Of a DNA stretch of 64,000 nt, positions 16,280 through 41,415 are shown in pieces. Numbering within the stretch: position 1 is the first letter of the stretch; every line of letters starts with the position of its first letter. Source of the stretch: Podarcis vaucheri (Eukaryota); assembly GCA_965113315.1 (NCBI GenBank), contig OZ220367.1, one strand, 5' to 3'. The notes below the pieces were generated by a model. The model ran no database searches and was not told the DNA's origin. It saw only the letters and a program-made list of their open reading frames with translations. A program made the translations under genes and the position numbers.

Positions 16280-16317
16280 GTATCTGAAGAAGTGTGCATG
16301 CACACGAAAGCTCATAT
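16280..16317 (+). ncRNA. Minimal type I hammerhead ribozyme motif (PLE-associated)
   Basis: GUAU-CUGAAGA-A-GUGUG(CAUG)CACAC-GAAA-GCUC-AUAU: core boxes, stem II, palindromic AGCU stem III, short stem I. Confidence 0.75.
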
Positions 16318-20117: not shown

Positions 20118-20350
20118 CCCATAGCTCAGTGGTTGTGTGTGTGTGTGTGTGTGTGTATGTGCTGTGCAACCAGAGGATCCCTGGATCAAGCCTTGGTATC
20201 TCCACTTAGAAGGGTTAGGTAGTGGCAAGGTTGAGAGAGACCCCAGTCTGATATCTTGGAGGGCCACTGCTAGTCAGAGGAGACTGCTGGGCTGCATGGA
20301 CCAGTAGTATGACCCACCTTAAGAGAGTAATCAGCCCCTTATGTGGCTCA
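20118..20350 (+). mobile_element. Old tRNA(Ala)-like SINE remnant with internal (TG)n expansion
   Basis: TAGCTCAGTGG A box; degenerate B box followed by ATCTCCA; body related to remnants near 6.1, 11.0, 37.7, 61.7-61.9 and 63.0 kb. Confidence 0.5.
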
Positions 20351-20542
20351 TACAGAGTCTTGAACCAATATTTCTCAAATGCCTTGAACTTTAGTTCCTA
20401 TTCTGAATTCACTGTACGTCCAAGGACCTTGCAAACCCTTCAATAATAGTCTCTATTGTAGGGTAAGAGTGGAGATTCCTGCGGTCCTCCCTGCAGCTGC
20501 GTATGGCCATCTGTGGGTTGGGGTAGTTGGGTATTAAATATA

Positions 20543-20711
20543 CCATATTTTTTGCACCATAACACTCACTTTTTTCCTCCTAAAAAGTAAGGGGAAATGT
20601 CTGTGCGTGTTATGGAAGGAATGCCTACGGGTGGCATGCCTGCAGATTTTCCTCCTCTAAAAACTATGTGCGTGTTATGGTTGGGTGCGTGTTATAGAGC
20701 GAAAAATACGG
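20543..20711. mobile_element. Tc2-like MITE, short internal-deletion variant of the 10412 element
   Basis: Both ends near-identical to 10412-10774; TA TSD. Confidence 0.85.
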
Positions 20712-21096
20712 TAGCTTCAGCATTGACTCTTCCCTTTTTCCTGCACTACTTGTGCCCTCTTATGCTCAGCTGAGTGGCAGACATTTCTTCTGAAGGACAT
20801 GAATGAAACGGCTTCTTTTGCAGGGTCTGTGCCCAGAACTCAAGTCGGGGGCGGTCTAGAACCCACACATCTCTCATGGAGGCCCAGATCTAAGTTTCAG
20901 AATCTAGACTGCACACTGTTGACAGCCTCCCTTTTTAACAACTCACTGAAGGTGGAGTTTAAGAAGGGATGAACACTACTGAGTGCTTCTTAAGGGTGGG
21001 GTATAACACTTCAGATTAGTAAACAGGACATTTCTTAATAACCTCTGTGTGTCATTTGTGTGCATGCTTTTTTCGTAGCGTTTTTCATGTAGAACA

Positions 21097-21911
21097 CAGA
21101 GGTTTTCAAACTCTGGTTTGTGGACCATGGTGGTCCTGTGGCTCCATTCAGATGGTTTGTAGAAAGTCTTGAATATCTGTACAGTGGTGCCTCGCAAGAC
21201 GAAATTAATTCGTTCCGCAAGTTTTTTCTTCTTGCGAGTTTTTCGTCTTGCGAAGCACGGTTTCCCATAGGAATGCATTGAAAATCAATCAATGCGTTCC
21301 TATGGAGACCGTCGGGGACAGAGGGGAAGCGCCGCGGGCCTTCCCCTCTGTCCCCGGACCTGTTTTAAAGCAAGGGAAGGGGCAGCGGGGAGAATCGCTT
21401 CTCCCCGTTGCCGCCCCTTGGTTCAAAAGGGGTCCGGGGAGAGAGGGGAAGGCACGGGCGCGCCTTCCCCTCTGTCCCCAGAGATTGCGGGGCTGGCAAC
21501 GGGGAGAAGCGATCTTCTCCCCGCCGCCCCTTGCTTCAAAAGAGGTCCGGGGTGCGGGGGCAAGCTTCGTTTTGCGAAGCAAGCCCATAGGGAAATTCGT
21601 CTTGCGAAGCAACTCGAAAACGAAAAAACCTTTCATCTTGCGAGTTTTCCGTCTCGCGAGGCGTTCGTCTTGCGGGGTACCACTGTACTTGAACTGACAC
21701 ATTATTGATTCTCTCATTACAATGGAGGGTGAGACTGTGATTTTCCAAGTAAGTCCCCTGGTTTTGACAGTGATGCTGGTACCCACTCATACCCATGATG
21801 TTTAATCCATAAACGGAAGCGGGTGTGTGTTCTAAAATGTAGAACAATGTTTCCTACATAGTCTCGAAGTATCAAAGTGAACCGTGGGAGAAAGAAGTTT
21901 GAGAACCATTG
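21097..21911. mobile_element. Old hAT-like element hosting MITE copy 4
   Basis: CAGAGGTTTTCAAACT...AGTTTGAGAACCATTG termini; right end GAGAAAGAAGTTTGAGAAC shared with 6372-6631. Confidence 0.45.
21182..21685. mobile_element. Tigger/pogo-like MITE copy 4 with GC-rich hairpin core
   Basis: Same TIR family; TA TSD; 504 bp. Confidence 0.9.
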
Positions 21912-23626
21912 ATAGACTCACCAACCAAGGGAGTCCTGCACCGAAGTCATCAGGAGCCAGGGAACATGATTGAGCACCTACAAGATCCCGGTTTTGTTTG
22001 TTTTAAGGCCATGCTGAGAAGTAAACATTTATACGAGAAATAAAATATGGGTTTAAATATGTTAGGCTGCCTTATTTTGCAGCATTCCACACATAGCTCA
22101 CACGATGAGAGCATGGGGGGAAGCACAGCCCTTCAGGAACAAACTCTCCCCATAGCTTGGCCTTCACCTCAATTCATCAGGAAGAGCCGCCCTAGTTTGA
22201 GAAGAGGCTGCAGCAGCCCACCGGCTGTGGAGTGGTTTCTGGTGAAGGACTTGAAGTTTTACAACTACGCTTGACTTGTCCTTTGAAAACTCACAGAACA
22301 CCGATGCTAATAATTTCTTATGTGGCACACCAACCTCTGTTGGTGTATATGGCAGCGTTTCAGTTAACATGTGCAAATATTATAATCATTTTCCACAACT
22401 AGTGACTGAGTCACAATGCTTTTTGGCTCTTTTTGCTGCTGTTGCAATAAGTCAACAGGCAGGATTCGAAGAACCACAAAAGCTCAATTCAGTGAGCCAA
22501 AGTGGGTGGGTGGATGTGTGTGAGAGAGAATTTAGATTTGTTTTTCCTCATTTAGCTTTCCCGCCTCCAAAAGAGGGACTGCACGACAAACTGCTTTTGG
22601 AATTGAGGAAAGTTTCAAAAGCAGGTTGTGCTATAGGTGTCAAAGAAGTATTAACCTCTTGTGTGAGTCTGAGCAACTCTTTCAATCCCAGCCCTTGAAT
22701 TTCACTATTGGCCTCCGTTGGTCGCTATTATTTCATAGAATCGTAGAGCTGGGAGGGACCCAAAGGTCATCAAGTCCAATCCCTGCAGTGCAAAGCAGAA
22801 CCCTTTTCTACTGGACTCTTTATGTAAGGCCCTTTGATGTGACTTTTTCGGCTGGGTGCTGTTTGAAACAGAACAATCTAGATGGGCCTTTTCTTTAGAC
22901 TGATCAAGGTGTTACTGTCACGCGATAACTGATTGTGGAAGTTGTGGGATCAGCGTGAAATTTCTTAGTGCTATTGGCTGGAAATGAGTCATTGGGAACG
23001 AGGCAGAATGAATTATGAAAATTAAACAAATATGTGCGGTTTCTTAATTTATTAATATTAATAATTATTATTTAAACAATTTATATACCAGTTAACTGCA
23101 ATAGTCTCTAAGCAGTTTGCAAAGATACAATACAAAAAAATGGTTAAAACTATAAAATCAAACTCCAATGGAAATGCCGGCGGGATTAAAAAAGAAGTTT
23201 TCAGTAGGGAGGGCACCTCTCTGAGCTCGACTGGAAGGCAGTTCCATGCATTGATGTTATTCAAGTTGCACCATTGAGCTTTATTGGATAGGATTGTTTT
23301 TGTGGGGGAGTGGGACAATAATAGCAGAGAAGGTTATGATCATCTCCTTTCTAACTAGCCCCCATGTAAACAGCTGCATTCAGTTGGGTGGGGAGGGTTC
23401 CTAAATGGTCTTGAGATGTGCACTTCCTTTCCAAGCTTAATCACCCTTTCATGGAAGCACATAACTTGAGTTTGAAAGTGCAGGCCTTTTCCTCTTAATG
23501 TAAAACGTCGCTCTATAGGATGGTCCTATATAACCCTTATATAGAGACATCCTAGCAGTAATGTGCCTTTTGAAGAGACGGGATGGGGAATCCAATGTCT
23601 GAGACATGATAGTTGCCATAGTTGTA

Positions 23627-23632
23627 TTTATT
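23627..23632 (-). terminator. Candidate HTR2B polyadenylation signal AATAAA
   Basis: AATAAA on the minus strand about 250 nt after the stop; another candidate at 23280-23285. Confidence 0.3.
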
Positions 23633-23878
23633 TGAACACGACACCTCTGTTTTGTAAACCGCTGTGCTCAAATACTTTTTTTTTTTGGTAGCAGGATAAA
23701 TTGCTGATAAATAAGAATAAATGAAGGTGGCCCTTTGAGTGAGAGAAGCCTCTACTCTTAGGGGAGAGCAGTTGATAAAACTATAATTTGGACTTGTATA
23801 AATAACAGATGGGAACCACATATACATACTGGGCATTTATCAGTGAGTTTAGGGTATGGCATGGCCTTTTCTCTTCAG

Positions 23879-24768
23879 CTATACATAGCTGACTTGTTCT
23901 TCTGTTTTACCAACTTCATTCTCTGTGAGTAGCAGTGTATCCAGCAGTATGGCCGACGGAGACTGGATGGGCGAGGTGCGAAGCCGATGGCTTTGGTACA
24001 TGACTGGATTAATCCCATTCCGCATTCCGTGGTGCATCATGAAAAGTTTTGAGTTCTCTGCCACGGAATTTCTGAACGAGAGCCTGCTGGAGCACTTCCG
24101 AATGGCGGATCCGGGCGTAGAGGTCTGGTAATTGCAAGTGATATATCTGCCAAATGCCTCCCTGAATGTCCTGTTGAAGAGCGTATAGACCAGTGGGTTC
24201 ACGCCTGACGAAACATACCCTATCCAGACAAATATCTCCATAAGTGTTTGGATAAACTCCTTGCGGCAGGACGTGCACAGAACGGAAGTGATGTTGGTTA
24301 TGAAGAACGGGCACCACATCAACAAAAAGAGGAAGAATACAATACCCAAGACCTTGGAGGCCCGCTGTTCATTGGTAATAGTCTGTTCCGACTTTTTCCC
24401 GACTGTAGACATCCTGCGCATTAGCAGTTCTTCATTCCCGTTAGGCAAAGGCCTGTCCTTTTTGGAGTTGTCCAACATGGCCACTTTTTCCGGTGATGAT
24501 CCGGGCGTCATATCCCTCTGGAATACCGTGGACACCGTGCTCCAGGTAAAGCGCTGGGGCAGTTTGTTGATCAAGTAGGCTTTCTTGCGCAAAACTCTGA
24601 TGGTCAGGAAGTAAGTGACCACCATGATGGCCAGCGGGACGAAGAAGGCAGCCACCGAACCATAGAGCATGAAGTCTCCAAAACGCTCCGGTGTCAGCAC
24701 ACAGGTGAAGTTTGGGAAGTTTTCAACACCTTCTTCTATGCCACGGATCGGGATCGGGATCGCAATGC
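23879..24768 (-). CDS. HTR2B: HTR2B last coding exon (ECL2, TM5-TM7, C-tail)
   Basis: ttcccctacag acceptor; (G)IAIPIPIRG...[17 protein letters not shown]...WCPFF...NPLVY...EEQVSYV-stop (PDZ ligand typical of 5-HT2B); three exons total 1389 nt = 462 aa plus stop. Confidence 0.97.
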
Positions 24769-26863
24769 CTGTAGGGGAAACAGAAATCTAGTAAGCTTCA
24801 ACCTGGACGTGGAACCAGCGCCACAGTACATAATAAGATGCATGTTCTGAGACTGGCTTCCGAACATTGGAGCAAATGAAATTACAGGAGCTTTGCAAGC
24901 CCACCGTTGGAGAAAACCACTTTATTTAATAACATTTATATGCCTCTTGATTGAACAGAAGCCCTCAAAGCAGCTGAACTGGAGATGTCTCCAAAGCACA
25001 ACAGATCAAGTAGCTAGATAGTACCTCAAAATAGGAAAGCATCAGGTTGAGGGAGGTGACTCCTATGAGGTTAATTCTGCCTCTTGACTCCTTCTAGCCC
25101 ATGTTTGGAGCAACACTGGCTGTTTTGTGCCCCATCTCCTTTCTTGGGCAACAAATGGAGCAAATTTTTCTAGGATCACTTGTGTTTGACATAAAGCGCG
25201 TGTTGCGTTTGCAGTGGTGACCCACTTCCCACAAGCCTTGTTTCCGCAGGAGGGAGGACAGGAGCTACATGCAGCCGAGAGGAATTGTCTCAAGATGGCG
25301 GGAAGGATGGGAAATGCTGGCAATTGGTTTTAATTTTTCCGTTCTCCTTCCCTGACCTTCTGCAAGTTGCAAGCGCAGGATGCTTTGAGTTCTCTGGCCT
25401 AGCGAATCTTCCTGCCTCCTAACAACGGCTGCTGTTGAACATATTTGTGGTTTCTTAAGAGCTGGCTTAGCTACCAAGCAAAACTTGGTGCCTTCGGCCC
25501 TGCAGCACTCAAGTAATCGGGTCAGCGATGAAGCTTTCACTTTTTAGTGCTGCCGCCACGGCTTTATAAAGTTTAGGGATTTGCTGTACCTTAGGCTATC
25601 GCTTCCATGTCTTATGTGCTATAGAAATGACAAGCATCCTTAAGTTCCTTTTGTTCTCTTGTTTAATAGCAGTGCAGAGGCATTGCAATGAAGAGAGTCC
25701 TGCTGGATTGTTTACTTATTTAATTTATATGCCACCCTTCAGCTGAGGCTCTCAGGGTGGTTCACAGCATAAAAAGGCAAGATAAAAACATAAAATACAT
25801 AATAAAAACAAGAACGAACCAAAGCAATAGACAGTGGGTTAGTCCAACATCTTGGTTGCTGCAGTGAGCATCTAGATGCCTTGAAGGAGCCCAACGAAGC
25901 CTATTGCCTCTGAATTTGGAGAGTCCATAGCTAGACACCTGCTAATCAGTTTTTAAGCTCCCCTTAAATTATTGAGAAGATGCGGTTCAGAGACTGAGTA
26001 CATTTAATGAGTAATAAGACATGGGATAAGTGCTGCATATGATTGATGCTGCTAAAACCTGGCATTAAAAAGTCATGTTCAAATAGTTTTGCCTCATTAG
26101 CCATTTCCTTTTTTTGACTTCAAAAGTTGCCTATTGTTTCCTTTGATTGCGGGAAGCTCCTAAATTTACTAATGTAGGAAGTGGTGCTTTTTGGAAAAAA
26201 CCGCCACAGGTGTAGTCATTGATTAAGTGGGTGGTGCCTTTTTTCACCTCTCAGTTGTTTGCAACATAACTGATTTTAAAATCATTCTTATTCTTAACAC
26301 TCCTTTGGGCATATTTTGCATCACTTGTTTTACGGTTAATCTATGATATCTGCTTCCTGTGCTTTGGAGCCATTGCTTGCCAGTAGTTTGGAGTCATTGA
26401 TTCACTTCCCCCCTGCTCCTCATTTGTCTTACATCTGGAGTTGACATTTTGTGTGCAAACCAACGAGAAATTAACAACGGGCTGTGTGCCTTCATAGAGT
26501 TCAGAATACACGGAGAAGCATAATATAAACTATTCATTTGCACCTCATTTATTATTTTCTGCTTTGCGTACTTTTGACAACACAGTCATAGTTTCCTCTC
26601 TTCCTTTACCTCTGAACAGTTAAGTTCCCAGTTGCACCCCACCCTCCTGTTCCTCTGTCCTTATCTTTTTTTGTTTAGTGTGTCTGTCGGTGGGCATTTG
26701 ACCCAGCTAGTTCACTTCTCTTTTAGATCCAAAAGAATTGGAGGTGGTGTCAGTTTCCCACCCACAAGGAACTGCTCCTCACTGGGGCTAGTGGTAGTGA
26801 CTGAATTCAAGCTTCTCTGTGCCTGGGGCATTGTGATTTCTGTTGTAGCAATCCAACTTTTGT

Positions 26864-27212
26864 GGGACGCTGGTGGCGCTGTGGGTTAAACCACAGAGCC
26901 TAGGACTTGCCGATCAGATGGTCGGCGGTTCGAACCCCTGCAATGGGGTGAGCTCCTGTTGCTTGGTCCCTGCTCCTGCCAACCTAGCAGTTTGAAAGCA
27001 CGTCAAAGTGCAAGTAGATAAATAGGTAGCGGGAAGGTAAACGGCATTTCCGTGCGCTGCTCTGGTTTGCCAGAAGCGGCTTAGTCATGCTGGCTACATG
27101 ACCCAGAAGCTGTACGCCGGCTCCCTCGGCCAATAAAGCGAGATGAGCGCCGCAACCCCAGAGTCAGCCACGACTGGACCTAATGGTCAGGGGTCTCTTT
27201 ACCTTTACCTTT
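26864..27212 (+). mobile_element. Full-length Sauria SINE (inside an HTR2B intron)
   Basis: A and B boxes; (ACCTTT)n tail; 13-bp TSD aatccaacttttg. Confidence 0.92.
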
Positions 27213-27324
27213 AATCCAACTTTTGCAACTGAAATGTGTTAAGCAATTTCCCAACAAACTAATAATGGTAATGTGTTTGTTGAAAGGAAGGTATTATTGG
27301 TTTGAGTTCTTTTTGTATGTACTT

Positions 27325-27547
27325 TGTGCAAGTAGATAAATCGGTACCACTTTATAGCGGGAAGGTAAATGGCGTTTCCGTGTGCTGCGCTGGTGCTGGC
27401 TCGCCAGAGCAGCTTTGTCATGCTGGCCACGTGACCCGGAAGTGTCTTCGGATGGCGCTGGCCCCCGGCCTCTTAAGTGAGATGGGAGCACAACCCTAGA
27501 GTCGGTCACGACTGGCCCGTACAGGCAGGGGTACCTTTACCTTTACC

Positions 27548-27593
<46 letters not shown>
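27325..27593 (+). mobile_element. 3' half of a Sauria SINE variant followed by a (TAT)n microsatellite
   Basis: GTGCAAGTAGATAAAT...GGGTACCTTTACCTTTACC, then TAT repeats 27549-27593. Confidence 0.8.
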
Positions 27594-27784
27594 TATTTCC
27601 ATGCTTTGCTCTGTTGGACAGCAAGGTATTGTGTATTTTTATCCCTAATGTATAGGAGTTTGAGTTCAGAGATGCTATCTGAATGGCGTGTTAGGGCTTT
27701 GAGCCTTCTTTTGGTACAGAAAGAACATTTGCCCTTGAGATAAGTAGATAGTATAAAATTTCTGACCAGGCACTGGGAATGCCG

Positions 27785-27915
27785 CCTTCGGTTAGAGCAT
27801 GGTGCTGATAATGCCGTGGTTACAGGTTCGATTCCCATAAGGGATTGCTGCATATTCCTGCACTGCAGGGGGTCGGATTAGATGACCGTCAGGTTCTCTT
27901 CCAACTATGATTATG
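27785..27915 (+). mobile_element. SINE: tRNA-Ile-like head plus CR1-type tail
   Basis: GGTTAGAGCATGGTGCTGATAATGCC...GGTTCGATTCCC head; ATTCCTGCACTGCAGGGGGTCGGATTAGATGACC tail. Confidence 0.75.
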
Positions 27916-28107
27916 CCTGTTTTGCTTTAGACCCCCAGCTGCACTTCAGTTTTAGAGATTTTATTCGAGGAAGAGAACCAAGGCTAGCTGATGTCCTCAT
28001 TGGAGGCTGCTCCCCATTCACGCAGCGCCACTTTTCTGGCACCCATGCATTCACACCAGCTGTTAGCAAATGAAAAGCACACTCTCCCTTTGATGCTTGC
28101 CACATAC

Positions 28108-28308
28108 CTATTGAGATCAGCCAGACCACTGTGATTTTGATGAGTGTTGTGGCCCGTGAGTTGTACTGACTCGCTTGGATTGGCTTTTTTATGGCAATGT
28201 AGCGGTCCAGTGAGATGGCGCACAGATGCATGATGGAGGCTGTGGAAAAGAGGACGTCCAGAAACAGCCAGACAGGGCACAGCTCCCGCGGGAGAGGCCA
28301 TGCAATCT
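28108..28308 (-). CDS. HTR2B: HTR2B middle coding exon, 201 bp (TM3-TM4)
   Basis: tttttcag acceptor; (E)[44 protein letters not shown]...VVWLISI(G) with D3.32 and DRY; G|gtatgt donor. Confidence 0.97.
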
Positions 28309-29324
28309 CTGAAAAAGAGTAGGAAAGGGTTAGGATTCTTCTTGGGGGGGTGTATCCTGTGGAAGAGGGTGCAACATTTACTAAATGAATTCGCGACACT
28401 ATAACCCCCTCCAATTAATCAGGCAGGAGTTTTTAAAAAGTTATTTTTACTACAAGTAATTTTTAAAAACTGCAGGTGATATCTCGGAAGAGGCCTTCTT
28501 CCACCTCTCCTGCACTGGAGGAGCTGCTTTTAAGATGAGTGTTTGCATTGGTAGATGTGGGGTGGGATCTATTCTGTAGAACCCTTTCTCAATTGCAAAT
28601 GTAAGCACATTTAATCTATTGATTAATCAAGGCTTCTTGAACAGGGCAATTGCCCTATCTTCAATGCCTTTGAGGTAGTGGCCTAAAAATCAGTGGATTG
28701 TGGGCTTATTAAGCAAAAAGAGGGCAGCAGCAGCTGGTGATCTGTTAAGCGTTAGAGGTGTAGTGTTCTGGTTTTGGGGCACAGCAATTCTGGTACATAT
28801 GCTGCTTTACAATTAGGTGACTTTTTCTTCGCTGTGGTGGCGGCGATCAGGTGAAAATACCGCATCTTGTTGCAACGCATAGTTTTCCTTTTCATAATTC
28901 GGAATCCTGATTTCTAAATAGGGCTTCTTCAGCCCTGTGCACCTGCTAATAGTAAATTGTCCCCCTTTCATTTTGTCATATTCAAATCCATCAGCATCAC
29001 TATTCCTGTAGTAGCCAGCTCCTGTTCCTTACTTAATGGTGCAAGGTTTGGTTTCTAAGCCAGATTTCTTTGTAGAGGCCCTTGCTATGAATTAGCTGTG
29101 TCCTTCTTGGGGATTAAATTGGGGATTAAATTGCAATAAAAACGAATACATTTTGGGGGGCATAACTGTTCAAAGGTAAAAATAAAGTGGGTTTTTTTTT
29201 ACTCTGGGCATAATCTTGAGATTTTGAACCTTGCTGATTGTGTGTGCCCTCTTTTCTTAATCTGTGGGGCCAACACTAGTTGCCAGGATTCTCAGCTTTA
29301 CTACTACTACTACTACCAATAATA

Positions 29325-29664
29325 ATAGTAATAATTTATTATTTATACCCCGCCCATCTGGCTAGGCTTCTCCAGCCACTCTGGGTGGCTTCCCAAAAAA
29401 TATTAAAATACAGTAATACATCAAACATTAAAAGCTTCCCTGAACAGGGCTGCCTTCAGATGTCTTCTAAAAGTCTGGTAGTTGTTGTTCTCTTTGACAT
29501 CTGGTGGGCGGGCGTTTCACAGGGTGGGTGCCACCACCGAAAAGGCCCTCTTCCTGGTTCCCTGTAACTTGGCTTCTCACAGCGAGGGAACCGGCAGAAG
29601 GCCCTCGGAGCTGGACCTCAGTGTCCGGGGAGAACGATGGGGGTGGAGATGCTCCTTCAGATAC
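29325..29664 (-). mobile_element. L2 LINE 3' end
   Basis: Shares TTTATACCCCGCCCATCTGGCT terminus and body with 12617-13377. Confidence 0.85.
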
Positions 29665-30929
29665 TAAGGTTGACAAGGATAATGAATCAACTACTACTGG
29701 GTGAAACCTATTTAAGCTGCCTACGGCTTTGTTAAGCAGAATACAGCAAAACCAGATCTGAATGCGATTCTCCCCACCTTCCCGGCTGCCTTTTCATTTT
29801 GGATCCATAAGCAGCAACTACTGTCCCACCTCCCCCTTTCCCCAGGTAGCCTGGGGGAGGCTTCCGGTGTGTCTATAGCTTCCCTGCACAAGCCATCCAA
29901 TTCCTACACAGAAACCATACACTCCCGACATTGTGGGGAGCATTGTGTGAGTGGCTCTGCACCTGTGTTAAATGGCTGTTTCTTTATTGGAATATGGTGG
30001 GATGCTGTGGAGTCCAAACCACGTGGCAGCTGGTTCTTCCTGCAGCAGCCAGCCCTCCGCAGTCTTATTTTTAAAGAAGTCCGCTCTGTGGTTTGTTGGG
30101 TATTAATAGTAATAGCAGAGGGAAAAACCCTGCAGCGCTTTTTTTTTGGTTTTGTTTAAAAAGAGAATTGATAACATTTAAAATGAAGTAGAAAGCCGAT
30201 GCCTTGTTGAATAGACCGTGAAATGTTGAGCAAACCTTTTTAAAGATTTCCTTTGAGTTTTTATTAGCTTTTTTTAAAAAAAAATCTCTCGTTCCCAGAG
30301 CACAGTCGTGCCAGAAGAAATAAAAGCTTCAAGTAACCAATTAAATTTGCGTGCTTGAAATCCCGAGATTCTATCTAGCAAGGCAAGCGTTTTCCTGCGC
30401 CTTGAACTAATGTTGTTGAGACCAAGTAATGTATGGCCTTTTTGTGTGCAGGTGTTCGCTTTACATGTGAAGAGGATGATGGCTCCTGGCTCGCTAGATT
30501 TCCAATGAATGATTTCAATGTTTTCTCTCCTTTGTGCCGTGCTGCTTAGACGTTACCTCCTTTCTTCTCATTCCTGCAGGGAGAGAATTTTTGCGCTGTA
30601 GCAAAATAGCCTCTCTCGCCCTCTTACATCAGAGAACGTGGATTTTTCTCCCGCTAAACTTCTGCTTTTTCTTCCTTTTGTGCTCAGTTTTGAGAGAGGT
30701 GGTGTGCGTGTGTTGTGTGTTTAAGAAAAGTGACTTTAAATGCTTGATATTGAGAGTGCTGGCTGCAATTTGAGTGTGGGTGTTTCCGTGTTTGGTGGCC
30801 CAGTGAATAAGGCATTGGACTGCCTTCGGCCCAGATCACATCATGGCTGTTGAGTGATCTTCTTGGCCATGTGTAATATTAACTCTTTCCTCTCTGTAAA
30901 ATGAGAATAATGAAGAGGAGGAGTTACAG

Positions 30930-31157
30930 GAGGCAGTGGTAGCGGTGTAGCCTCTGAGCTGTGAACTGGGAAGTCCCTGGTGCAAATTTCACCTTGGCCA
31001 TGAATTCAGTAGGCAGCCTTTGATAAACTGCATTCTTTTACTTTCAGCACCTCGCCTTGTGATTTGCTAACACTGATCTACCTTACAGGATGGTTGCAAC
31101 AATTTACATGATGGGTTTTGAACATTTTAAAGCACTATATCAGTGCTAAGTGATTAT
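30930..31157 (+). mobile_element. Degenerate CORE/MIR-like SINE remnant
   Basis: Decayed tRNA head, CCTTACAGG core, AAGCACTATAT...GCTAAGT tail; similar remnants near 32.8, 48.0, 48.6 and 56.3 kb. Confidence 0.45.
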
Positions 31158-31299
31158 ACTGCCCCAGTGACATCTGCTAAGTAGGGGAATGTCTTATTCT
31201 CTGGCCCAGGCAAGCCAAACTCCTTGGCTCTATAGATGTCAGCCTGCAAATCCTAATGCTCTTTGTTGATCATGTGTGTTACAAATTGCGTCACCTACA

Positions 31300-31396
31300 T
31301 ATGTCAGGAGTGCTCTGATGGTGTTTCCTGCTTGGCAGGGGGTTGGACTCAATGGCCCTTGTGGTCTCTTCCAACTCTAGGATTCTATGATTCTAC
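31300..31396 (+). mobile_element. CR1 LINE extreme 3' end
   Basis: Near-exact reverse complement of 49929-50020; ATTCTATG-type tail. Confidence 0.8.
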
Positions 31397-34300
31397 ATTT
31401 TCCAATCAGATAGAAGGACCGTCACTCTTCATTGAAATGATGGTAGACTGTCTTTCAAAGACTCCTGCCTACCATTTACTAGTCTCATTTAGGAACTCTT
31501 GATAAGTTTATAAAGAACCCCAAAGTTTCCTTGGATGCACTTAAAGCCCACTGTCCTAGAAGAGTGAATAGAGTCAAGAGGCACACACATTTCCTCTCTT
31601 AGATCTTCCCTATCAACTGTCAGAAATGAAAGGAATTGTGTTTGTGTGATGTGTTGAGAGTCTGTACAGTTGTGGAAGCACAGAAGTCTTAAAAGCAGGG
31701 AGGGGTGGGCCTTATTGGCTGACTTGGCCACAGCTGACACTATTTAAACAGTTATCTGGCTAATGGATTTTTAAGGGATTACTAGCCTTCTAGGAGACTC
31801 AGCTGTGTTCTTGCTTCAGTCCACCCAGTCCAGGGCCTTTTTTTGCTTCTGGTGTGAATTTTCTCTTCTAGCAGTTGCTGAGGAAGCAGAAATACACAAC
31901 TTTTGCGGCTAAGTAGACATCTTATGGATGTGAATTCAGCTTAGGGTCAGCTGTGTTTTCAGAGTGCCTGCAAATAATGTCGCCACACCTATTTAATTAC
32001 GATCCCTAACTTCCCTCCCTTTGAAGCAGCCTGCAACATGAGCTTCCTTTTTGTTGGCTTCTAAATTAAGATTCCTTGCATTTTTTAAACTTCGGTTTTA
32101 GTAGTTTTCACTCAGGATTAATGGAAGATTAAATTTCAATAATAAAAGAAGACGAGAGCAGAAAAGCAAAATTGTTAGGAAGCTTAAGGCCAAGTTAGCC
32201 ACTCGCAGGACTGGCATCTTGTGTCGTTTGGCCCTGAGTAAACTTGAGAGGAGAGAGTTTGTAATCCTTTTGCAGTTTTTTGCTGGTCGCTAATCACTTG
32301 CTCTTTTACTTCTTCTAACTCTTAGTGCTTACATTTAATGTTGCTCAGCTTCACAGCAGTATGGCAAATCCTGCAAGCTATGAAGATCTCTGTAGCTCAA
32401 GAGACCTGATCATAGTGAACCTCTCAGAATGCTCACATCTTCTCAAAACAAAATGTTATCACTCTTGTATCTGGATTAGAAGAAAGCAGTCTTGAAGGCG
32501 ATGGAGCTGGAAGTTCCCATCATCCCTGACCACTGGTCCTGATAGCTAGGGACGATGGGAATTGTAGTACAAAAACAGCTGGAGACCCAAGTCCGGGAAA
32601 CCTTGATTTATAATGACTCCAGGGCCAAGACTTGCTTGTCTGAGTTAGTCCTGCCTCTGTGCATATTTAGTTTGAGTGATGTATTTGCTATGATCTTAGC
32701 CAGTGTAATTTAAGTGCGCTGGATAGCAGTAGAAAATACGGCAGTAGCTTCCTATTTAATGTAGGATTTATTTGCGTTGCTTCTTCAAAGGTTCCTCCTC
32801 ATGATTTGCACTCACAATTACTCCCTTGGGTGGTATAGTAGTTTAAGAGACTGTTACAGAAAAGTTCCCGATTTAATTCTTGCCTTCTGCCATGAAGTCA
32901 TTAACCGACTTCACCCAGAACCTCCCCGCCCCACCCCACTGATAAGGGGATAATAATACTGGGCTGCCTTTGTCATTTGTAAGGATCATGACAAGGTATT
33001 ATATGTGAAGGGCTTTGAACAGTATAAAGTGTTATTTGAACACTACATTTATACATTCAGCTGATCTCCACATGGACATGGGGTAAGAATCAACTAACCC
33101 ATCTTGGTTTTATCTTCCTTGTACCTGGAGGGACATTCGTGCTTTTCCTTCCAAGCAATAAGGACTGTTTTTGTCTTTATTTTTTATTTCCAGCTTGAAA
33201 ACTGCGGCCATAACATGTCACTTGGTTCATTTCCTTTGAACCATAGTTTTGTGCGTTTTGTATCCACTCAGTAGATTTTATCGCTTTTCTTTGCTGGATA
33301 ATAATTCATAGAGGCCAAATTGTCATAGGGCCTTTTTGTGCGTATGTGGAGGGAAAATTGAACTAATGAGACAATACATGCTTTCCGCAATTTGAGCTTT
33401 CTGTATCCTGTCCCCTGGCACTGTTTACTGATGTAGCATTGCATTCTAGTCTTCCCGTTGACTCTTGCTACGAATCAGTAGTACATGGGTACAGTTAAGA
33501 CTACTGAATGTAGGGGCATTTCCACTGGACGAGTGGGGTACCATACCAATGCACACTTGTAATTGTACATTAGGTAATTCGACCAGTTCCCTGCGTTAAA
33601 TGGACTCTTGTCAATTATTCCAAGCTGCTAATAGAATTTCTGTTTGTGATGGGCTGTGAAACGAGGACTGGAACTAAGGAGATTTAACTGCTGTGCAGGT
33701 GACTGAGTAGTCCTATCTACCACGAGAGTATGTACAAGAAGACACCTTGCATGGGAGCTGATTCACCAAGACCAGGAGTTGAAATCAGACCACATCCCAT
33801 GTCATGGCAAGGAGGCGAAGGCCTTCCACTTCACCCCTTAGCTGTGACATATCAGAGAATTCAGACAAACTGCCATCAAACTATGATCATGGTTTCACAA
33901 CCTCATCTCAACCGGCTTTGAACCATGCCACTGAACATTTCCCCGACTTTCATTTGTAGATCCATTTTTTGTTTTTAGGAGACGCAGAAAAAAATATTTT
34001 TGGAAATCTAGCAGAATATGAGGTTAAGGAAGACATTACTCAAAATTCCCCATTGAATTGTTTAAATGAATTTCACATAAATCACTAGAATACTGACTTA
34101 GAGTCTGTCTTAACTCTAGAAAGCAAAAAAAGGCAAACTGATTGCACTCAAATGAACTTTTATTTCACTGAAGCTGGAGATTAAATGATGTCAGTATCTT
34201 ATATCACACATATGGTCTGTGTTATGAATCATTGTGTACAGAGGCAGAAAAGGGGCTTTCTTGAAATGGATGGAACGATGCCCATTGGTGGCGATCATGG

Positions 34301-34442
34301 TGAATGTTTCTAGTTTATGTAAAAAAAAAAATTTAAAAAAAACTTATTCTAATTTTATAGGAACTGTGTATATTTTCATTTAAACTATGACACTATCACT
34401 GCTGTGTGTTATAACATAGCTGCCCACTTGGCAGAAGAGCTA

Positions 34443-35284
<842 letters not shown>

Positions 35285-36024
35285 CTACATAATAGAACAT
35301 ACACATGTCATGTTTTTATTTTTGTTGATGGGCTAGAATTGTTACACCAAACTTAGAGGTGGCATATGCTGAAAATTTATACCATCCGAGTTTTGAGTTT
35401 TAAAGGTTGCGATGTTGCAAAAAACTCGAAATTGGGGGGGGGAACAGCTCCGGAGATAACTATTTATACTGTTTGGGTACAGCTTTGCTCCCCTTCTCAG
35501 TAGTTGAGCTATGAGAATAATTCCCAGTTCTTTCTCTCCGTAAATTCCATTTCCCTAGAGAACTACAGCTTGTAAACTGATGCGGGCTTCTTTACTATGT
35601 CCCTGCCTGCTTGTTCATCAGGTGGAAGGGCAGATAAAATCAATTTAGGATTTATTTATTTTCAAGCTAATAGTGCAATCCTATTCATTTTTACTCAGAA
35701 GAAACTCGCATTGAGTTAATGGTACTTATTGCAGGTGATTGCAGGCTGGAACTATAGGGGGGTTACTTGTTCAATGGGAAGACAGCAAATAATAATCTTG
35801 CCGGAATTACAGTTCGTGAACTATTTGACCAGACAGACTTGACTTCTAAATCCCTTTTGAGAGGAACATTTACCAATTCCTTCTCTCTAATAAACAAGCA
35901 CACGAAAGTGGCCCCCTTGGATTTCTGTATTTGCATTCAATTTTTTTCTATGGCGTTTCTCGATATACAAAGGGCACGTTACCATTCTTGCCTTTTAACA
36001 GTTTTAAAACGACTGACGCCTTAC

Positions 36025-36450
36025 CTTATTTATCCACTCCCTGGATTTTAGCGGAATTTCCCTAGTCCTTGAGCTGGATCCGTTTCCTTGGAGGACGTGT
36101 GTTCCTTATTTGCCGCACACTGGATGCTTCGAATGTCTCCCTCTAATTGCATTGCTTTCTTCCAAGCCAGCCACGCACACTTGCGATTGAATTTCCCACC
36201 GCAGTCGGGTTCACTTTGCGATTACGCCGCTGATTTCTTTCTCTTGTCAAGCCCAGAGGAGGAGGAGAACGGCTTGAGTCAATGGCTCCCTCCCTCCTCT
36301 GTCATGCTGCCGTTTTCTTTTGGTAATTTTTACATACTTAATATGTCCCCTGAGCACTGACCAGCCCTTCCTCTCTGCCTCTCGCCTTCTGTGCAGCTTC
36401 CTCTGAACGTGTATGCTCTGCTGCTATCATCTGTTGATTGACTCATTCCA
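36025..36450 (-). promoter_or_regulatory. Candidate HTR2B non-coding exon 1 and proximal promoter
   Basis: Strong minus-strand donor AAG|GTAAGG at 36025/36024; no recognisable repeats; AP-1 heptamers TGAGTCA (36275-36281) and TGACTCA (36439-36445); TSS unknown. Confidence 0.45.
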
Positions 36451-38497
36451 GTGCACCCAGCTCCAAGTGCTTAAAACGCAAAGCAACAAATGAGCAGATA
36501 TCCTCTCCCCTCCCTCTTTTCTTTTGCATCTGGAGAAGAGCCATGCAAGGTTATTTCCTCCCACCCCCACCATCCAGCTTTCCAGACCTGAAGCGCACAA
36601 CTCTCATCCCCAACTCTGAATGGGTTGATCCAATCAACGCCGGTCCTTTTCACTTGAGCATGTAAAAATACACTGTTCCCTTTTTCACGGCAGTCAAAAG
36701 GTGCTCCCTGGTAGTAGGAGCTTTTTACGTCTTTCATAAATACAGGGGAAACAACACTGTGCGACAATTTATCTGCAATCTACATAGTGCTTCAAGTGCA
36801 CAAGTCAATCACAGGCCGTGCTTTAATAATCTTCCCAGCAGTCCTGCCAGTTGGGCTTCAATTTTACAAACAGGGAACTGAGGCCAGGAGGTGCCTAAAA
36901 TCTTGGGTGAGTTTATGGCTTTCCTGTGTACTATTGCTTGCAAATGAATCTTGCGTGCATTACCTGGAAGTAGGTGAACTAATCAGTGTTTTTGAAGGTG
37001 TAAAACTTTGTTTCCCAACAGATGTTGTGTATTAAAGATAAAGTTGTGGGTAATATGTCAAGCATTCTGGCTCAACCATCTAGGATTTAGTTTGGTGTGC
37101 ATGTGCAGTTGTTGCGGCATTTTTTGTTCCAGAGAATGGAGTACCAATTAGATTCTCAAATTATTGCTGTAATTTTGTGAGTCACAAAAACTTTGGTTCG
37201 GGGTAGCTACTCTACAAGTCGTGCGTATTTGGCACAGTGCATATGGAAATACATGGGGGGGGTACATTGTAATGGATTAAAGCAATAGTAGGCTCCTTCA
37301 CATAATGCTTAATTTAAGGAACTCACTGCAACAAAATGTGGTGGTTGGTTACTGACTTAGCTGCCTTCCAAATGGGATTACATTCTTGGGGTGCCATTTT
37401 GTCTCTGAAGAGCTGCCCTTTACTTCAGTCTCGTGCATCCTGAACAACAACCAGCAAACTGACATTTCTAAATCACATGGAACAGCCTTCTTGCAGCCTG
37501 GCTGGGGCTGGTGGGGGTTATAGTACAAAACTTAGGAAGGTAACCAGTTTGGGGATGTTTTGCATAGGGCCTGTTGCTTGGCCTAGAAAATGGTAGCGTG
37601 TAGCCATTTCTTGTTTAAGAAAACCACTTTTGTCTGAGTTACACCTGGAACATACATCCAGAATCCTCTGGGGCACAGAGAGGTTGCTCATCGGGAGCAT
37701 TTAAAGGAACCTCGTTCCCAGCCATGCCATCTGCCCATCTAGTTCAGATACGACTCCTCAGACTGACAGGGACTCTCCAGGGTCTTCCCCATCACCTGCT
37801 GCCGGTTATTTCTCTAAAAGCCAGGAATTGTCAGGTGCACAGGAGTTCATCAGCATACAACAAAAAGGAAGGTAGAAAGGGTCCCTGAGGAACGGATGGT
37901 CTCTTACACTGAATGTAGAATGGCTGCCTTGGAAGCAGATACACTTAACGATAATGCCGTCCTTGACAGATAACACTACTTTTGTACATTTGGAGTGTTA
38001 TGGGCTGAAGCTGTCCTTTTCATCTGACATCCTTGTAAAGATCCAGGTTGTGCCGCTGTTGAGACAGCTGCCATTAAGACGCCGTGAGGCTACTGCAAAA
38101 TAGGTTCGCCTCCCTCCATTTCTCATTGTGGCAACAGGAAATTCACCCTTCCTCCTGTGAGGAGTTTGGTATTCTGCAGGTGGCTTTCAATAAGTACATT
38201 TGTTTTGGAAATTTCCATTATCGGTCCTGTGCGTCTGAAGAATAGCTATTTTTAGCGTGTGCAGGGGGCTAGATTTCTGGCTGGAGTGAAAATTAAATGT
38301 TTGCACCGTGCTTGAAAGTCTGCGGTTGCCTCTTACATGTTGGGGTCGGTTCTTTGCCACTGTGATGCGTGCGGATGTGCTGTTGCTGCCCCCTGTCGAA
38401 GTGTTAACTCTTTCACAGAGGAAAAGCTTTGTGCCTTCAATATTTTCAGAAGGCAAATGAGTCCATAGAAGCTTATGCCATAATAAATGCCTTAGCT

Positions 38498-38635
38498 CAG
38501 CGGTTCTCAACCTGTGGGTTCCCAGATGTTGTTGGACTACAACTCCCATCATCCCTGAGCTCTGGCCTTGCTAGCTAGGGGTGATGGGAGTTGTAGTTCA
38601 ACAACATCTGGCGACCCACAGGTGGAGAAAGGCTG
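38498..38635. mobile_element. Short palindromic hAT-type MITE
   Basis: CAGCGGTTCTCAACCTGTGGGT...ACCCACAGGTGGAGAAAGGCTG hairpin; perfect 8-bp TSD ccttagct; related fragments near 32.5, 52.8, 58.2 and 60.5 kb. Confidence 0.88.
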
Positions 38636-38974
38636 CCTTAGCTGAATGCTGTAAGACTCCGGGTTCTGGGGAACTGAGTAGCAAGTGATAGGATTTGATT
38701 TGAGAAGTCCCAAAGGACGTGTTTGAAATATCACTCCATTCTGGAACGGGGATGCTCACTTGACTTTCCAAGAACAAGTGTTCCTTTGAATTAAAGTATA
38801 ATTCTCAGGAAAAAGACAAAACATCATGCACAAACGGTTTCATGATGAAGCAGGGTTATGGTTAGCTCAGAGGGTGGGGAAGGACGTTCATTTATAAAGG
38901 GCAGGACTTGAATTGTTTTCCCCCCCTTCTGAGCAATTACGGTTTAAGAAGAATGGGCACGTTTGTTGATAAAG

Positions 38975-39455
38975 ACGGGTGACAAAAATGGTGAGGTCCC
39001 TGGAGACTCAAATCCTTGTAAGGAAAGAATGGAAAGTGTTTGGCTTGGAGAAGAGACTGCTTCTGTTGGTTAGAGCCTGGTGCTGATAACGCCAAGGTTG
39101 CAGGTTCAGTTCCCATATGGGACAGCTGCATATTCCTGCATCGCAGGGGGTCAGACTAGATGACCCTCAAGATCCCTGCCAGCTCTGTGATTCCATGATT
39201 CTATGAAATAATACAATGGCAATCTTCAGGTTTGGATTTAAATGATGGATCAATAATTTGCTCCAAAAGGAAGGTAGGACCCAGACCTGTGGGTTCAAAT
39301 TTCAAGGAAATCAGTGTAGATGAAATTGATGGGAGGGATCAGGCTGCCTCAGAAAGAGGTCAAGTCGCCACCTCTCAAGGATGCTGTCGGAGAGCCAGTC
39401 TTCTTCATCGCATGGGTTTGAACTAGAAGACCTTTGAGAACCCTTTTGACACCTT
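38975..39455 (+). mobile_element. Old CR1 3' fragment interrupted by a SINE
   Basis: Decayed CR1-like motifs (ACAAAAATGGTGAGG..CTGGAGAC; TGTTTGGCTTGGAGAAGAGACTG; TTGAACTAGAAGACCTTTGAG). Confidence 0.55.
39062..39206 (+). mobile_element. SINE: tRNA-Ile-like head plus CR1-type tail
   Basis: TTGGTTAGAGCCTGGTGCTGATAACGCCAAGGTTGCAGGTTC head; tail ending ATTCCATGATTCTATGA. Confidence 0.8.
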
Positions 39456-40164
39456 GTTGTTGTTGTTTAGTCGTTTAGTCGTGTCCGACTCTTCGTGACC
39501 CCCTGGACCAGAGCACACCAGGCATTCCTGTCTTCCATTGCCTCCCGCAGTTTGGTCAAACTCATGTTTGTAGCTTCAAGAACACTGTCCAACCATCTCG
39601 TCCTCTGTCGTCCCCTTCTTCTTTCCTTACAAGGATTTGAGTCTCCAGGGACCTCACCATTTTTGTCACCCGTCTTTCCCAACATCAGGGTCTTTTCCAG
39701 GGAGTCTTCTCTTCTCATGAGGTGGCCAAAGTATTGGAGGCTCAGCTTCAGGATCTGTCCTTCCAGTGAGCACTCAGGGCTGATTTCCTTCAGAATGAAG
39801 AGGTTTGATCTTCTTGCAGTCCATGGGACTCTCAAGAGTCTCCTCCAGCACCATAATTCAAAAGCATCCATTCTTCGGCGATCGGCCTTCTTTATGGTCC
39901 AGCTCTCACTTCCATACATCACTACTGGGAAAACCATGGCTTTTACTATACGGACCTTTGTTGGCAAGGTGATGTCTCTGCTTTTTAAGATGCTGCCTAG
40001 GTTTGCCATCGCCTTTCTCCCAAGAAGCAGGCGTCTTTTAATTTTGTGGCTGCTGTCACCATCTGCAGTGATCATGGAGCCCAAGAAAGTAAAATCTCTC
40101 ACTGCCTCCATTTCTTCCCCTTCTATTTGCCAGGAGGTGCGGGGACCAGTGGCCATGATCTTCG
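39456..40164 (-). mobile_element. Bov-B (RTE clade) LINE, 5'-truncated, open C-terminal ORF
   Basis: TKIMATGP...VKAMVFPVVMYGSESWTIKKADRRRMDAFELWCWRRLLRVPWTARRSN...VTKSRTRLND; (CAA)n tail; 11-bp TSD tttgacacctt. Confidence 0.95.
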
Positions 40165-40408
40165 TTTGACACCTTAGCATGGCTGATTTCATGGCTAGTG
40201 TACAGTACTGGGAAAGTGTGGTTGAGGGGATGTTATACTTTGCAAAGCAGCTGGCTTACAGAGTTCCTGATTTTAATGTTTCTTCATTGCTGTAGCCTTA
40301 ATTGTTCTCCTTTTGTTTGTTTTCATAATGCCAAATTATATTCCATTTCCCCCCTCCTGTAAGAGGTTTTACTTGAAGACTCCCATTCATTAAAGGACCT
40401 GACTGTTT

Positions 40409-40411
<3 letters not shown>

Positions 40412-40451
<40 letters not shown>
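40412..40451. repeat. (TG)n microsatellite
   Basis: About 20 TG units. Confidence 0.95.
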
Positions 40452-40453
<2 letters not shown>

Positions 40454-41214
40454 TTAATGCAAGCAGATACTGATTCTAGGGTGCTGCTGCTCATACACTG
40501 GAATAGCCGACTCCCAGATACTGTATAAAGCATGGATTCTGCTGCAGTTTAGGCACTTGCTGAAAACCTTGTTTGCTTTGGTGTTCGATGGCTCATGACT
40601 TCAGCTATTACAATTTTCAGTTTTTGGGCTGCTGTGTATGCCGTACTGTGTGCATTTTGTTTTTGTACATTACATTCTTTTTACTGCTGTAAACCACGGA
40701 AATACGTTTCTAATGACAAGTGCTCTACAAATATTTATAATAAATAATAAATTCTGATCTCTTTATGTGTGTTGAACTTGATTGAATAATTGCTGAAGTA
40801 ATCGAAAGGCAAATGTAGTTTGTGTACGGGCCCTAAAAACCTTTACTGTGAATGTTTAGGTTCATTTATTCAAAGCCTTGTCACTCCCTATCTTCAGAGC
40901 AGCTCGTTTGATGCCAGCTTTGAGCTGTTGTTTGAGAACAAAGTGACAAATAGCTTTATGTGTGAGGCAGTTTATCGTCCTCAGGCCTGTTCTAGCTTTA
41001 GAAAGAATTGCCTGGTACAGCTTGCCTTCACCCTGAACCTCCGTTCCCATCACCTTCTTATTTACATTACTAGTCAAAGTTGCCTCTTGCAGGCGGGCAG
41101 CAGAATCCAAGCTATGTTTAGCAGAAATAAGTGTTGCTTCCTTTCCCTTTGGTTGCAAGACTTTGCTCCGTACTTTGCAGCTCTAAAGGTGTGGTGCTCT
41201 TTACACTTTAGTGA

Positions 41215-41415
<201 letters not shown>

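What the first reader, a model, noticed from the sequence alone, without database searches (positions are those of the whole stretch)
38971..39677. Bov-B copy contains a perfect 59-bp inverted copy of neighbouring host DNA, in frame
Seen: 39619-39677 is the exact reverse complement of 38971-39029 (59/59), which lies about 430 bp outside the element. Relative to the Bov-B at 54.8 kb, 14 nt (ccttgtgccctcca) are replaced by 53 nt. The net +39 nt keeps the ORF open (GK-MEGT-RRR becomes GK-TGDKNGEVPGDSNPCKE-RRR). One junction has 5 nt of microhomology (tcttt), and the 11-bp TSD is intact. The donor is part of an old CR1 remnant, so copying went from host into Bov-B. Inference: either the RT switched template out and back during target-primed reverse transcription, or later polymerase-theta-type repair made a templated insertion. 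The strand copied in the first model is the + strand, the sense of PSMD1 pre-mRNA, so nascent host RNA is a possible template. The pair could also form a 59-bp stem in the intron RNA.
Basis: partly seen in the sequence, partly recalled or inferred. Interest (0 to 1): 0.7.

Follow-up and report, generated by a model that had tools for sequence, protein, structure and literature searches.

The report
Inverted local DNA patch inside retrotransposon
A dead retrotransposon copy in a lizard gene carries a short patch copied backwards from host DNA 600 bases away, most likely an ordinary DNA-repair scar, with a smaller chance that the element's own reverse transcriptase briefly copied the host gene's RNA.

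Summary
39619-39677 is the exact reverse complement of 38971-39029. It sits in a 709-bp, 5'-truncated Bov-B-type LINE with an intact 11-bp TSD, in a 37-kb PSMD1 intron of a probably lacertid lizard. The insert is absent from 120 of 120 related proteins and 29 of 29 related DNA loci, so copying ran host to element.

The insert's first 7 nt repeat the first 7 nt where the element resumes, which gives an 8-nt priming match to the donor. The 5-nt right microhomology extends to 10/12. Together these fit a broken end at 39673 repaired by repeated microhomology-primed copying with fold-back.

The strand argument does not discriminate, because fold-back on DNA uses the same + strand. The open frame is chance (about 14%) in a copy without an RT domain. 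The 59-bp stem is weaker than other hairpins in this gene.

Verdict: a new example of a known class (inverted templated insertion), unusual for its 590-nt reach. Post-insertion repair or replication about 0.65; insertion-coupled about 0.29, of which RNA-templated about 0.12.

The parts
39456..40164 (-). 5'-truncated Bov-B-type (RTE) LINE copy, 709 bp, with a (CAA)n-type 3' tail at the left end and an open C-terminal ORF fragment lacking the RT domain
   Evidence: the name Bov-B is recalled, the hits are named RT proteins of Podarcis, Zootoca, Crotalus, Bos, Ovis and Moschus
39445..39455 (.). left copy of the 11-bp target-site duplication
40165..40175 (.). right copy of the 11-bp target-site duplication
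39619..39677 (.). 59-nt exact inverted copy of the donor; the 53 non-element bases are 39620-39672 and replace 14 element bases
38971..39029 (+). donor tract, 589 nt from the insert and about 415-475 nt left of the element
39620..39626 (+). first copy of a 7-nt direct repeat: the start of the insert equals the first 7 nt of the resuming element; with base 39619 it is an 8-nt perfect match to donor 39022-39029
39673..39684 (+). element resumption: 5-nt perfect, 10/12 imperfect microhomology to donor 38964-38975; includes the second copy of the 7-nt repeat (39673-39679)
38937..39060 (+). upstream part of an old, probably CR1-type LINE remnant that contains the donor
   Evidence: window translation resembles a recalled CR1 ORF2 C-terminus; no database confirmation
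39068..39208 (+). SINE-like repeat with a CR1-like tail, interrupting the remnant
   Evidence: 99/120 to a sister at 27790-27909; tail profile; three related unnamed proteins
39209..39455 (+). downstream part and 3' tail of the old remnant, into whose end the Bov-B inserted
4310..41258 (+). PSMD1 intron (36.9 kb) that holds donor and insert

Best explanation
After the Bov-B copy had inserted, a double-strand break in its most purine-rich tract lost 14 bp and was repaired by repeated microhomology-primed DNA synthesis (fold-back templated insertion, polymerase-theta or MMBIR type). Step 1: the left 3' end (+ strand, ending at 39619) copied 7 nt from the tip of the right end, helped by a TCT triplet on both sides of the gap. 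Step 2: it folded back and primed on its own resected strand about 590 nt upstream through an 8-nt perfect match. Step 3: it copied about 51 nt. Step 4: it re-annealed to the same tip of the right end through 5 perfect bases (10 of 12). Shown: the product, the microhomologies, the direction of copying, and that this parse reproduces the window exactly. Inferred: the break, its timing, the order of steps and the enzyme. The patch has no function.
For: The 7-nt identity between insert start and element resumption has a frequency of about 1-2e-4 per position, and the 8-mer occurs only at these two places in the window. The stepwise parse reproduces 39456-40164 exactly. Both the first bridge and the final join land on 39673, as expected of a physical end (inference). 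The extra 5 of 7 matches beyond the perfect 5 (p about 0.013) are useful in DNA-DNA annealing, but the product keeps the element bases, which a cDNA that had copied through them would not. The copy has 6 private amino-acid changes in 215 (1.2-1.6% per non-synonymous site) and 2 private bases in 79, while insert and donor are 53/53, a likelihood ratio of 2-5 for a younger insert. The site overlaps the most purine-rich 40-mer of the element (35/40). The other in-window copy spanning it has an independent 12-nt deletion with 3-nt microhomology, and 5 of 13 alignment gaps among 119 homologues fall in this one bin of 22. Precedent: snap-back SD-MMEJ (PMC5728401), iterative templated inserts (PMC5068794), and about 100 germline inverted templated insertions of 25 bp or more per human genome (PMC8421209).
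Against: Distance and length are atypical. POLQ templates peak within 20 bp of breakpoints (PMC11541566), about 85% prime within 10 bp and most are under 25 bp in worms (PMC5068794), whereas this one is 53 nt at 590 nt. The age test is weak (P of 53/53 is 0.07-0.27 even if the insert is as old as the element). The 14-nt gap has no perfect microhomology, and the silent variant that would give it one is seen in 0 of 20 spanning loci. A simpler parse (4-nt match plus a 3-nt slip) explains part of the 7-nt repeat. Bov-B covers only 1.7% of the window, so a random event landing in it is a coincidence that insertion-coupled models do not need. None of 20 spanning DNA loci has an indel at the site (probably collapsed repeat contigs).
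Confidence: 0.55

Rival explanations
1. Insertion-coupled, DNA-templated. During target-primed reverse transcription the cDNA 3' end left the RNA, folded back on the primer-side flank (+ strand, exposed by resection from the target-site end or by an R-loop), copied about 50 nt, and returned to the element.
For: cDNA and donor template are on the same strand, as snap-back needs. The TSD is intact. Precedents: 22 templated insertions among about 3,600 somatic solo-L1 (10.1101/2024.08.27.596794), R2 snap-back onto nearby rDNA (PMC11371274), and resection with cDNA self-annealing in L1 models (PMC11702581). It explains why the event lies in a young LINE.
Against: Published templates typically lie within 15 bp of the insertion site, and the R2 snap-backs occur at the 5' junction; this patch is internal (about 490 nt from the 5' end) with a donor 415-475 nt from the TSD. 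It leaves the 10/12 extension unused and needs two landings on the same RNA position. The age ratio of 2-5 is against it.
Confidence: 0.17
2. One reading: the Bov-B RT switched from its own RNA to nascent PSMD1 pre-mRNA and back.
For: The template in first-strand polarity is the + strand, the PSMD1 sense strand. One somatic L1 with co-inserted nearby pre-mRNA is reported (PMC10191854; passage and legend only). LINE chimeras are attributed to template switching (PMC13174262 passages; PMC2104539 listing).
Against: Strand does not separate RNA from fold-back DNA. The model needs a 14-nt skip, a jump out and a return 7 nt behind the exit, on an RNA without an end there unless it was cleaved. It leaves the 10/12 homology unused. 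The donor has no exon junction or other RNA mark. The age ratio is against it.
Confidence: 0.12
3. Post-insertion replication-fork template switch (four-point type 3-2-1-4 or its mirror 1-4-3-2). A leftward nascent - strand primed on the opposite template through the 10/12 match, copied 53 nt and returned 14 nt further on.
For: The 10/12 match has its perfect 5 nt at the primer terminus in this polarity and the product keeps the element bases. This type makes up 31% of 794 human-chimp events (PMC5453318, section 6).
Against: It has only a 1-nt (or 4-nt plus slip) return match. In the stepwise parse the return precedes the exit, a conformation not observed in that study. Median tract is 12 nt, maximum 128 (PMC7954356), and such events are short-range.
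Confidence: 0.1
4. Assembly or library artefact.
For: 100% identity, a single assembly, no reads available. Fold-back chimeras occur in sequencing libraries (own knowledge).
Against: It needs two chimeric junctions 53 nt apart, plus a 14-nt loss and a 7-nt duplication, with biologically typical microhomologies. There is no N in the window.
Confidence: 0.05
5. The 53-nt segment is a Bov-B subfamily feature and the match to the flank is secondary.
For: None found. Only 11 of the 120 proteins examined are named lacertid copies, so sampling of this genome's subfamilies is thin.
Against: 0 of 120 proteins hold any 6-mer of the insert peptide, 0 of 29 loci hold any 14-mer of the insert, and the donor is unique in the window.
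Confidence: 0.01

Closest known systems
Fold-back (inverse) templated insertion of TMEJ / snap-back SD-MMEJ (PMC11541566, PMC5728401, PMC5068794)
   Same: Small deletion plus an inverted copy of retained flank, priming and resolving microhomologies, signs of repeated priming
   Different: Template 590 nt away and 53 nt long, against peaks within 10-30 bp and usually under 25 nt; enzyme not testable
MMBIR-linked templated insertions, MMB-TI (PMC8421209)
   Same: Germline inverted copy of nearby DNA flanked by microhomology, sometimes multi-step, replacing a few bases
   Different: That survey looked only within 100 bp; this one lies inside a young LINE in a lizard
Short-range template switch mutation, type 3-2-1-4 / 1-4-3-2 (PMC5453318, PMC7954356, PMC8794818)
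   Same: Out-and-back switch that creates a perfect inverted repeat able to form an RNA stem
   Different: Longer reach and tract than typical; the 7-nt duplication suggests a return behind the exit point
Templated insertions made during L1/R2 integration, including pre-mRNA co-insertion (10.1101/2024.08.27.596794, PMC10191854, PMC11702581, PMC11371274)
   Same: Local host sequence built into a TSD-flanked LINE insertion
   Different: Those typically use templates beside the target site, and the R2 and fold-back cases sit at the 5' head; here the patch is internal, the element resumes, and the element is an RTE-type LINE

Membership tests
Bov-B/RTE LINE insertion (host element) | Close homology to lacertid and ruminant RT-bearing LINE proteins | tested here: met
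   85% identity over the whole query to Podarcis proteins with PF00078; family name recalled
Bov-B/RTE LINE insertion (host element) | TSD, tandem-repeat 3' tail, 5' truncation | tested here: met
TMEJ fold-back / snap-back templated insertion | Insert is the reverse complement of retained flank on one side | tested here: met
TMEJ fold-back / snap-back templated insertion | Priming microhomology | tested here: inconclusive
   8 nt in the stepwise parse, 4 nt with a 3-nt slip, 1 nt in the simple parse
TMEJ fold-back / snap-back templated insertion | Resolving microhomology and short deletion | tested here: met
   5 nt perfect, 10/12; 14 nt lost
TMEJ fold-back / snap-back templated insertion | Template within about 20-30 bp of the junction | tested here: not met
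   589 nt; so it works like this class but is not filed as strict TMEJ
TMEJ fold-back / snap-back templated insertion | Dependence on polymerase theta | not testable with these tools
   single historical event
Inverted templated insertion, broad class (MMB-TI / template switch mutation) | Inverted copy of nearby sequence with return to the original template | tested here: met
Inverted templated insertion, broad class (MMB-TI / template switch mutation) | Microhomology at the junctions | tested here: met
Inverted templated insertion, broad class (MMB-TI / template switch mutation) | Present in the germline allele, not an assembly error | not testable with these tools
   no reads or orthologous genomes
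Templated insertion made during LINE integration | TSD intact around the chimera | tested here: met
   (also true of any later event)
Templated insertion made during LINE integration | Template adjacent to the target site, patch at the 5' head | tested here: not met
   donor 415-475 nt from the TSD; patch about 490 nt inside the 5' end
Templated insertion made during LINE integration | Patch as old as the element | tested here: inconclusive
   P(53/53) 0.07-0.27 if the same age
RT switch onto nascent pre-mRNA | Template is the transcribed strand | tested here: met
   not discriminating
RT switch onto nascent pre-mRNA | An RNA-only mark (splice junction, editing, poly-A) in the copied tract | tested here: not met
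   tract is intronic and identical to DNA; absence is expected for an unspliced intronic tract, so it does not exclude the model
CR1 LINE remnant (donor) | CR1-like 3' tail | tested here: met
   against in-window copies whose CR1 label is recalled
CR1 LINE remnant (donor) | Homology of the donor tract to CR1 ORF2 | tested here: inconclusive
   no hit; resemblance recalled only

The most novel reading that the evidence does not exclude
A germline RTE-type reverse transcriptase paused in a purine-rich tract, jumped onto the nascent transcript of the gene it was inserting into, copied about 50 nt and jumped back onto its own RNA. That would be a fossil of retrotransposition into a gene during its transcription, and a route by which LINEs could take host sequence into their ORF in frame. 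If such internal patches are recurrent, their strand bias could be read genome-wide as a record of germline transcription at insertion time.
Probability: 0.12. Interest if true: 0.55.

Novelty: new member of a known kind. Interest (0 to 1): 0.25.

Why it matters
As most likely read, it matters little: one neutral repair scar in a dead intronic repeat. It is a clean example, because both ancestral sequences are known and the junctions can be parsed base by base, and its 590-nt reach lies beyond the 100-bp window of at least one published survey (PMC8421209). That suggests a cheap genome-wide test: young LINE copies serve as built-in references for long-range templated insertions, and donor side and strand against host-gene strand would separate repair, DNA snap-back and RNA switching. 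If the RNA route were shown, it would extend a single somatic L1 report (PMC10191854) to a germline RTE element with return to the element.

Tried and rejected
Subfamily feature: rejected.

Meaning in the open frame: rejected. 13.75% of 20,000 simulated local inverted inserts keep the frame open, and Pfam finds no RT domain in this copy.

Functional RNA stem: mean pair probability is 0.99 in an 851-nt fold, but the duplex energy of -119 kcal/mol compares with -381, -295 and -173 for transposon inverted repeats in the same pre-mRNA. No Rfam match over donor or insert in 36-42 kb.

CR1 confirmation by protein search failed. One search scored 0 of 2 candidates, one search scored 0 of 4, one search gave 3 hits all to the SINE part, and Pfam gave none.

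A silent variant that would give the 14-nt gap a 3-nt microhomology was seen in 0 of 20 spanning loci. A strong RNA structure at the site of the element RNA was not evident (no shuffle control). CpG decay was too sparse to date the patch.

Opposite-strand transcription from the nested HTR2B gene was considered. Its coding exons end near 35 kb and, by eye, a likely 5' exon lies near 36.0-36.6 kb, so it probably does not cover the site; this was not tested.

Not checked: reads, other individuals, orthologues and other copies in this genome (no eukaryotic genome collection), and the metagenome and viral contig collections.

Full report
1. Observation. Bases 39619-39677 are the exact reverse complement of 38971-39029; chance expectation in this window is about 1e-26. 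The match extends to 64 of 66 (38964-39029 with 39619-39684). Among 17 exact inverted matches of 25 nt or more it is, by my reading, the only one that is not a hairpin element or a dispersed repeat pair. It lies in a 709-bp minus-strand LINE fragment, 39456-40164, between identical 11-bp repeats at 39445-39455 and 40165-40175. Against the copy at 54.6-54.9 kb, 14 nt are replaced by 53 nt and the frame stays open.

2. Context. The fragment's ORF is up to 85% identical over its length to Podarcis RT-bearing proteins, with further named hits in Zootoca, Crotalus, Bos, Ovis and Moschus. That squamate-plus-ruminant pattern is what I recall for Bov-B; the name comes from no call. The window is probably from a lacertid lizard (inference). 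The exon at 41259-41373 matches human PSMD1 38/38 and the previous exon ends at 4309, so donor and insert share one 36.9-kb intron with PSMD1 on the + strand. An HTR2B gene is nested in it on the - strand, with coding exons left of about 35.0 kb. The donor lies in an old repeat that a SINE-like element interrupts (39068-39208) and whose tail ends at the Bov-B target site. The tail matches in-window CR1-like tails (E 8.9e-5; 0 of 500 shuffles). The donor's own translation resembles a CR1 ORF2 end only as I recall it; searches gave no support.

3. Direction. 0 of 120 related proteins (the best 120 of 8000 scored; 11 named lacertid) contain any 6-mer of the insert peptide. Of the 88 that match the flanking motif, 85 have a 4-residue and 3 a 3-residue spacer; 32 did not match the pattern. 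Against one intact relative, no gap of 3 or more residues occurs at the site among the other 119. Of 29 Bov-B-like DNA loci (apparently animal DNA in bacterial assemblies), 20 span the site without an indel there and none holds a 14-mer of the insert. So the patch is private and was copied from the flank.

4. Junction anatomy, the new part. The first 7 nt of the insert (39620-39626) are identical to the first 7 nt of the resuming element (39673-39679). With base 39619 this is an 8-nt perfect match to the end of the donor (39022-39029), an 8-mer found nowhere else in the window; the 7-mer frequency is about 1e-4. The element's 12-mer right of the gap has exactly two 10/12 matches in the inverted 1-kb left flank, and they are the two ends of the copied tract; the best score in the other three flank orientations is 9. 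The product is reproduced exactly by: left part, 7 nt from beyond the gap, 46 nt of donor, then the element again from 39673. A TCT triplet flanks the gap on both sides (3-nt microhomology for a 17-nt gap, none for the 14-nt gap). The latter accounts for 3 of the 7 repeated bases.

5. Mechanism. Best reading: a break with 14 bp lost, repaired by cross-junction priming, fold-back priming about 590 nt upstream, and re-annealing at the same tip. Two landings at 39673 suggest a physical end. The extra homology beyond the perfect 5 nt (p about 0.013) is usable between two DNA ends, whereas a cDNA that had copied through it would have fixed the donor bases, and the product has element bases. Timing: 6 private amino-acid changes in 215 positions (1.2%, or 1.6% counting two ambiguous ones) and 2 private bases in 79 put the copy at about 1-2.5% from its source. 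An insert of the same age would still be 53/53 with probability 0.07-0.27, a ratio of only 2-5 for a later event. The site overlaps the most purine-rich 40-mer of the element, the other spanning copy has its own 12-nt deletion beside it, and 5 of 13 gaps among 119 homologues fall in this bin. This hints at a slippage- or break-prone tract; the 20 DNA loci do not show it.

6. Evidence against that reading. The reach and length are far from typical POLQ templates, the age test is weak, and Bov-B covers only 1.7% of the window, a coincidence that insertion-coupled models avoid.

7. The strand argument. But the + strand of the left flank is also the strand left single by resection of a left end, whether at a later break or at the target site. 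The mirror route (nascent - strand primed at the 10/12 match) gives the same product from the - strand; PMC5453318 calls such mirror cases indistinguishable. One locus therefore cannot favour RNA.

8. Frame and stem. 13.75% of 20,000 random local inverted inserts keep the frame open, and the copy has no RT domain. The stem is predicted (mean pair probability 0.99) but at -119 kcal/mol is weaker than transposon inverted repeats in the same pre-mRNA (-381, -295, -173). No function is indicated.

9. Comparison with print. Fold-back templated insertions with priming and resolving microhomology, templates peaking within 20 bp: PMC11541566 (passages). Snap-back SD-MMEJ: PMC5728401 (passages). Iterative inserts, about 85% primed within 10 bp: PMC5068794 (passages). 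About 100 germline inverted templated insertions of 25 bp or more per person, searched within 100 bp: PMC8421209 (passages). Four-point switches, type 1-4-3-2/3-2-1-4 at 31%, return-before-exit not observed: PMC5453318 (passages and section 6). Median tract 12, maximum 128: PMC7954356 (passages). Switches creating RNA stems: PMC8794818 (abstract). 22 templated insertions in about 3,600 solo-L1, typically under 250 bp and within 15 bp of the site: 10.1101/2024.08.27.596794 (passages and part of section 4; its Supplementary Fig. 4d, which would show where such patches sit, was not seen). One L1 with co-inserted nearby pre-mRNA and 4 fold-back duplications: PMC10191854 (passages and legend; the figure was not seen, so I do not know whether that case is internal). 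Three insertions with nearby templated DNA, and resection with self-annealing: PMC11702581 (abstract, passages, sections 6 and 7, supplement part 3). R2 snap-back: PMC11371274 (passages). LINE chimeras: PMC13174262 (passages); PMC2104539 (listing only). Also opened, little bearing: PMC5110952 and PMC3415434 (passages), 10.1101/2020.03.06.980458 (abstract). I found no report of an internal out-and-back local patch in a Bov-B or RTE copy in searches; the library lacks most subscription papers, so this is weak.

10. Verdict. Real; a new example of a known class (inverted templated insertion), at the long-range end, and not filed as strict TMEJ because the distance criterion fails. Probabilities (judgement): post-insertion break repair 0.55, replication switch 0.10, insertion-coupled on DNA 0.17, RT on pre-mRNA 0.12, artefact 0.05, subfamily 0.01. 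Interest 0.25. Reads, orthologues and this genome's other copies could not be examined.

Noticed in passing
window 23882-35000, - strand: HTR2B (serotonin receptor 2B) is nested antisense in the 36.9-kb PSMD1 intron, with coding exons near 34.9, 28.2 and 24.8-23.9 kb and a possible 5' exon near 36.0-36.6 kb. I recall the same arrangement in human.
   Followed up: partly
window 54632-54922: The second Bov-B copy (9-bp TSD) has a 12-nt in-frame deletion with 3-nt microhomology right beside the site altered in the first copy.
   Followed up: yes
window 43943-44021: 79-bp 3'-end Bov-B stub with a possible 6-bp TSD.
   Followed up: partly
window 38937-40175: Three-layer nesting: an old CR1-like remnant, interrupted by a SINE-like element (39068-39208) and, in its 3' tail, by the Bov-B copy.
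   Followed up: partly
window 15943-16371, 45109-45318, 18313-18511: A young hairpin (MITE-like) family: a 196-bp stem at 98% and a 97-bp perfect stem in PSMD1 introns; the strongest predicted double-stranded RNA among the pairs folded.
   Followed up: no
window 11557-11893 and 14294-14632: An inverted pair of 340-bp related elements (86% overall, 162 nt at 93%) 2.4-2.8 kb apart, with short tandem units inside; further relatives at 6817-7053 and 21177-21691.
   Followed up: no
window 38498-38635: A small hairpin element (59-nt arms, 88%) that scores below threshold against Rfam mir-5408 (55.8 bits against 90); probably a MITE, not a microRNA.
   Followed up: partly
L001-L029 (genome contigs): 29 contigs of bacterial genome records carry Bov-B-like LINE sequence, most 77-96% identical to a yak protein and on very short contigs; probably animal DNA contamination. 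L014 is a much more divergent relative at 50%.
   Followed up: no
window 12579-13380, 29330-29665, 61174-61492: Fragments of another LINE family, including a stop-free RT-like stretch on the - strand at 12991-13380; the family was not identified by any search.
   Followed up: no
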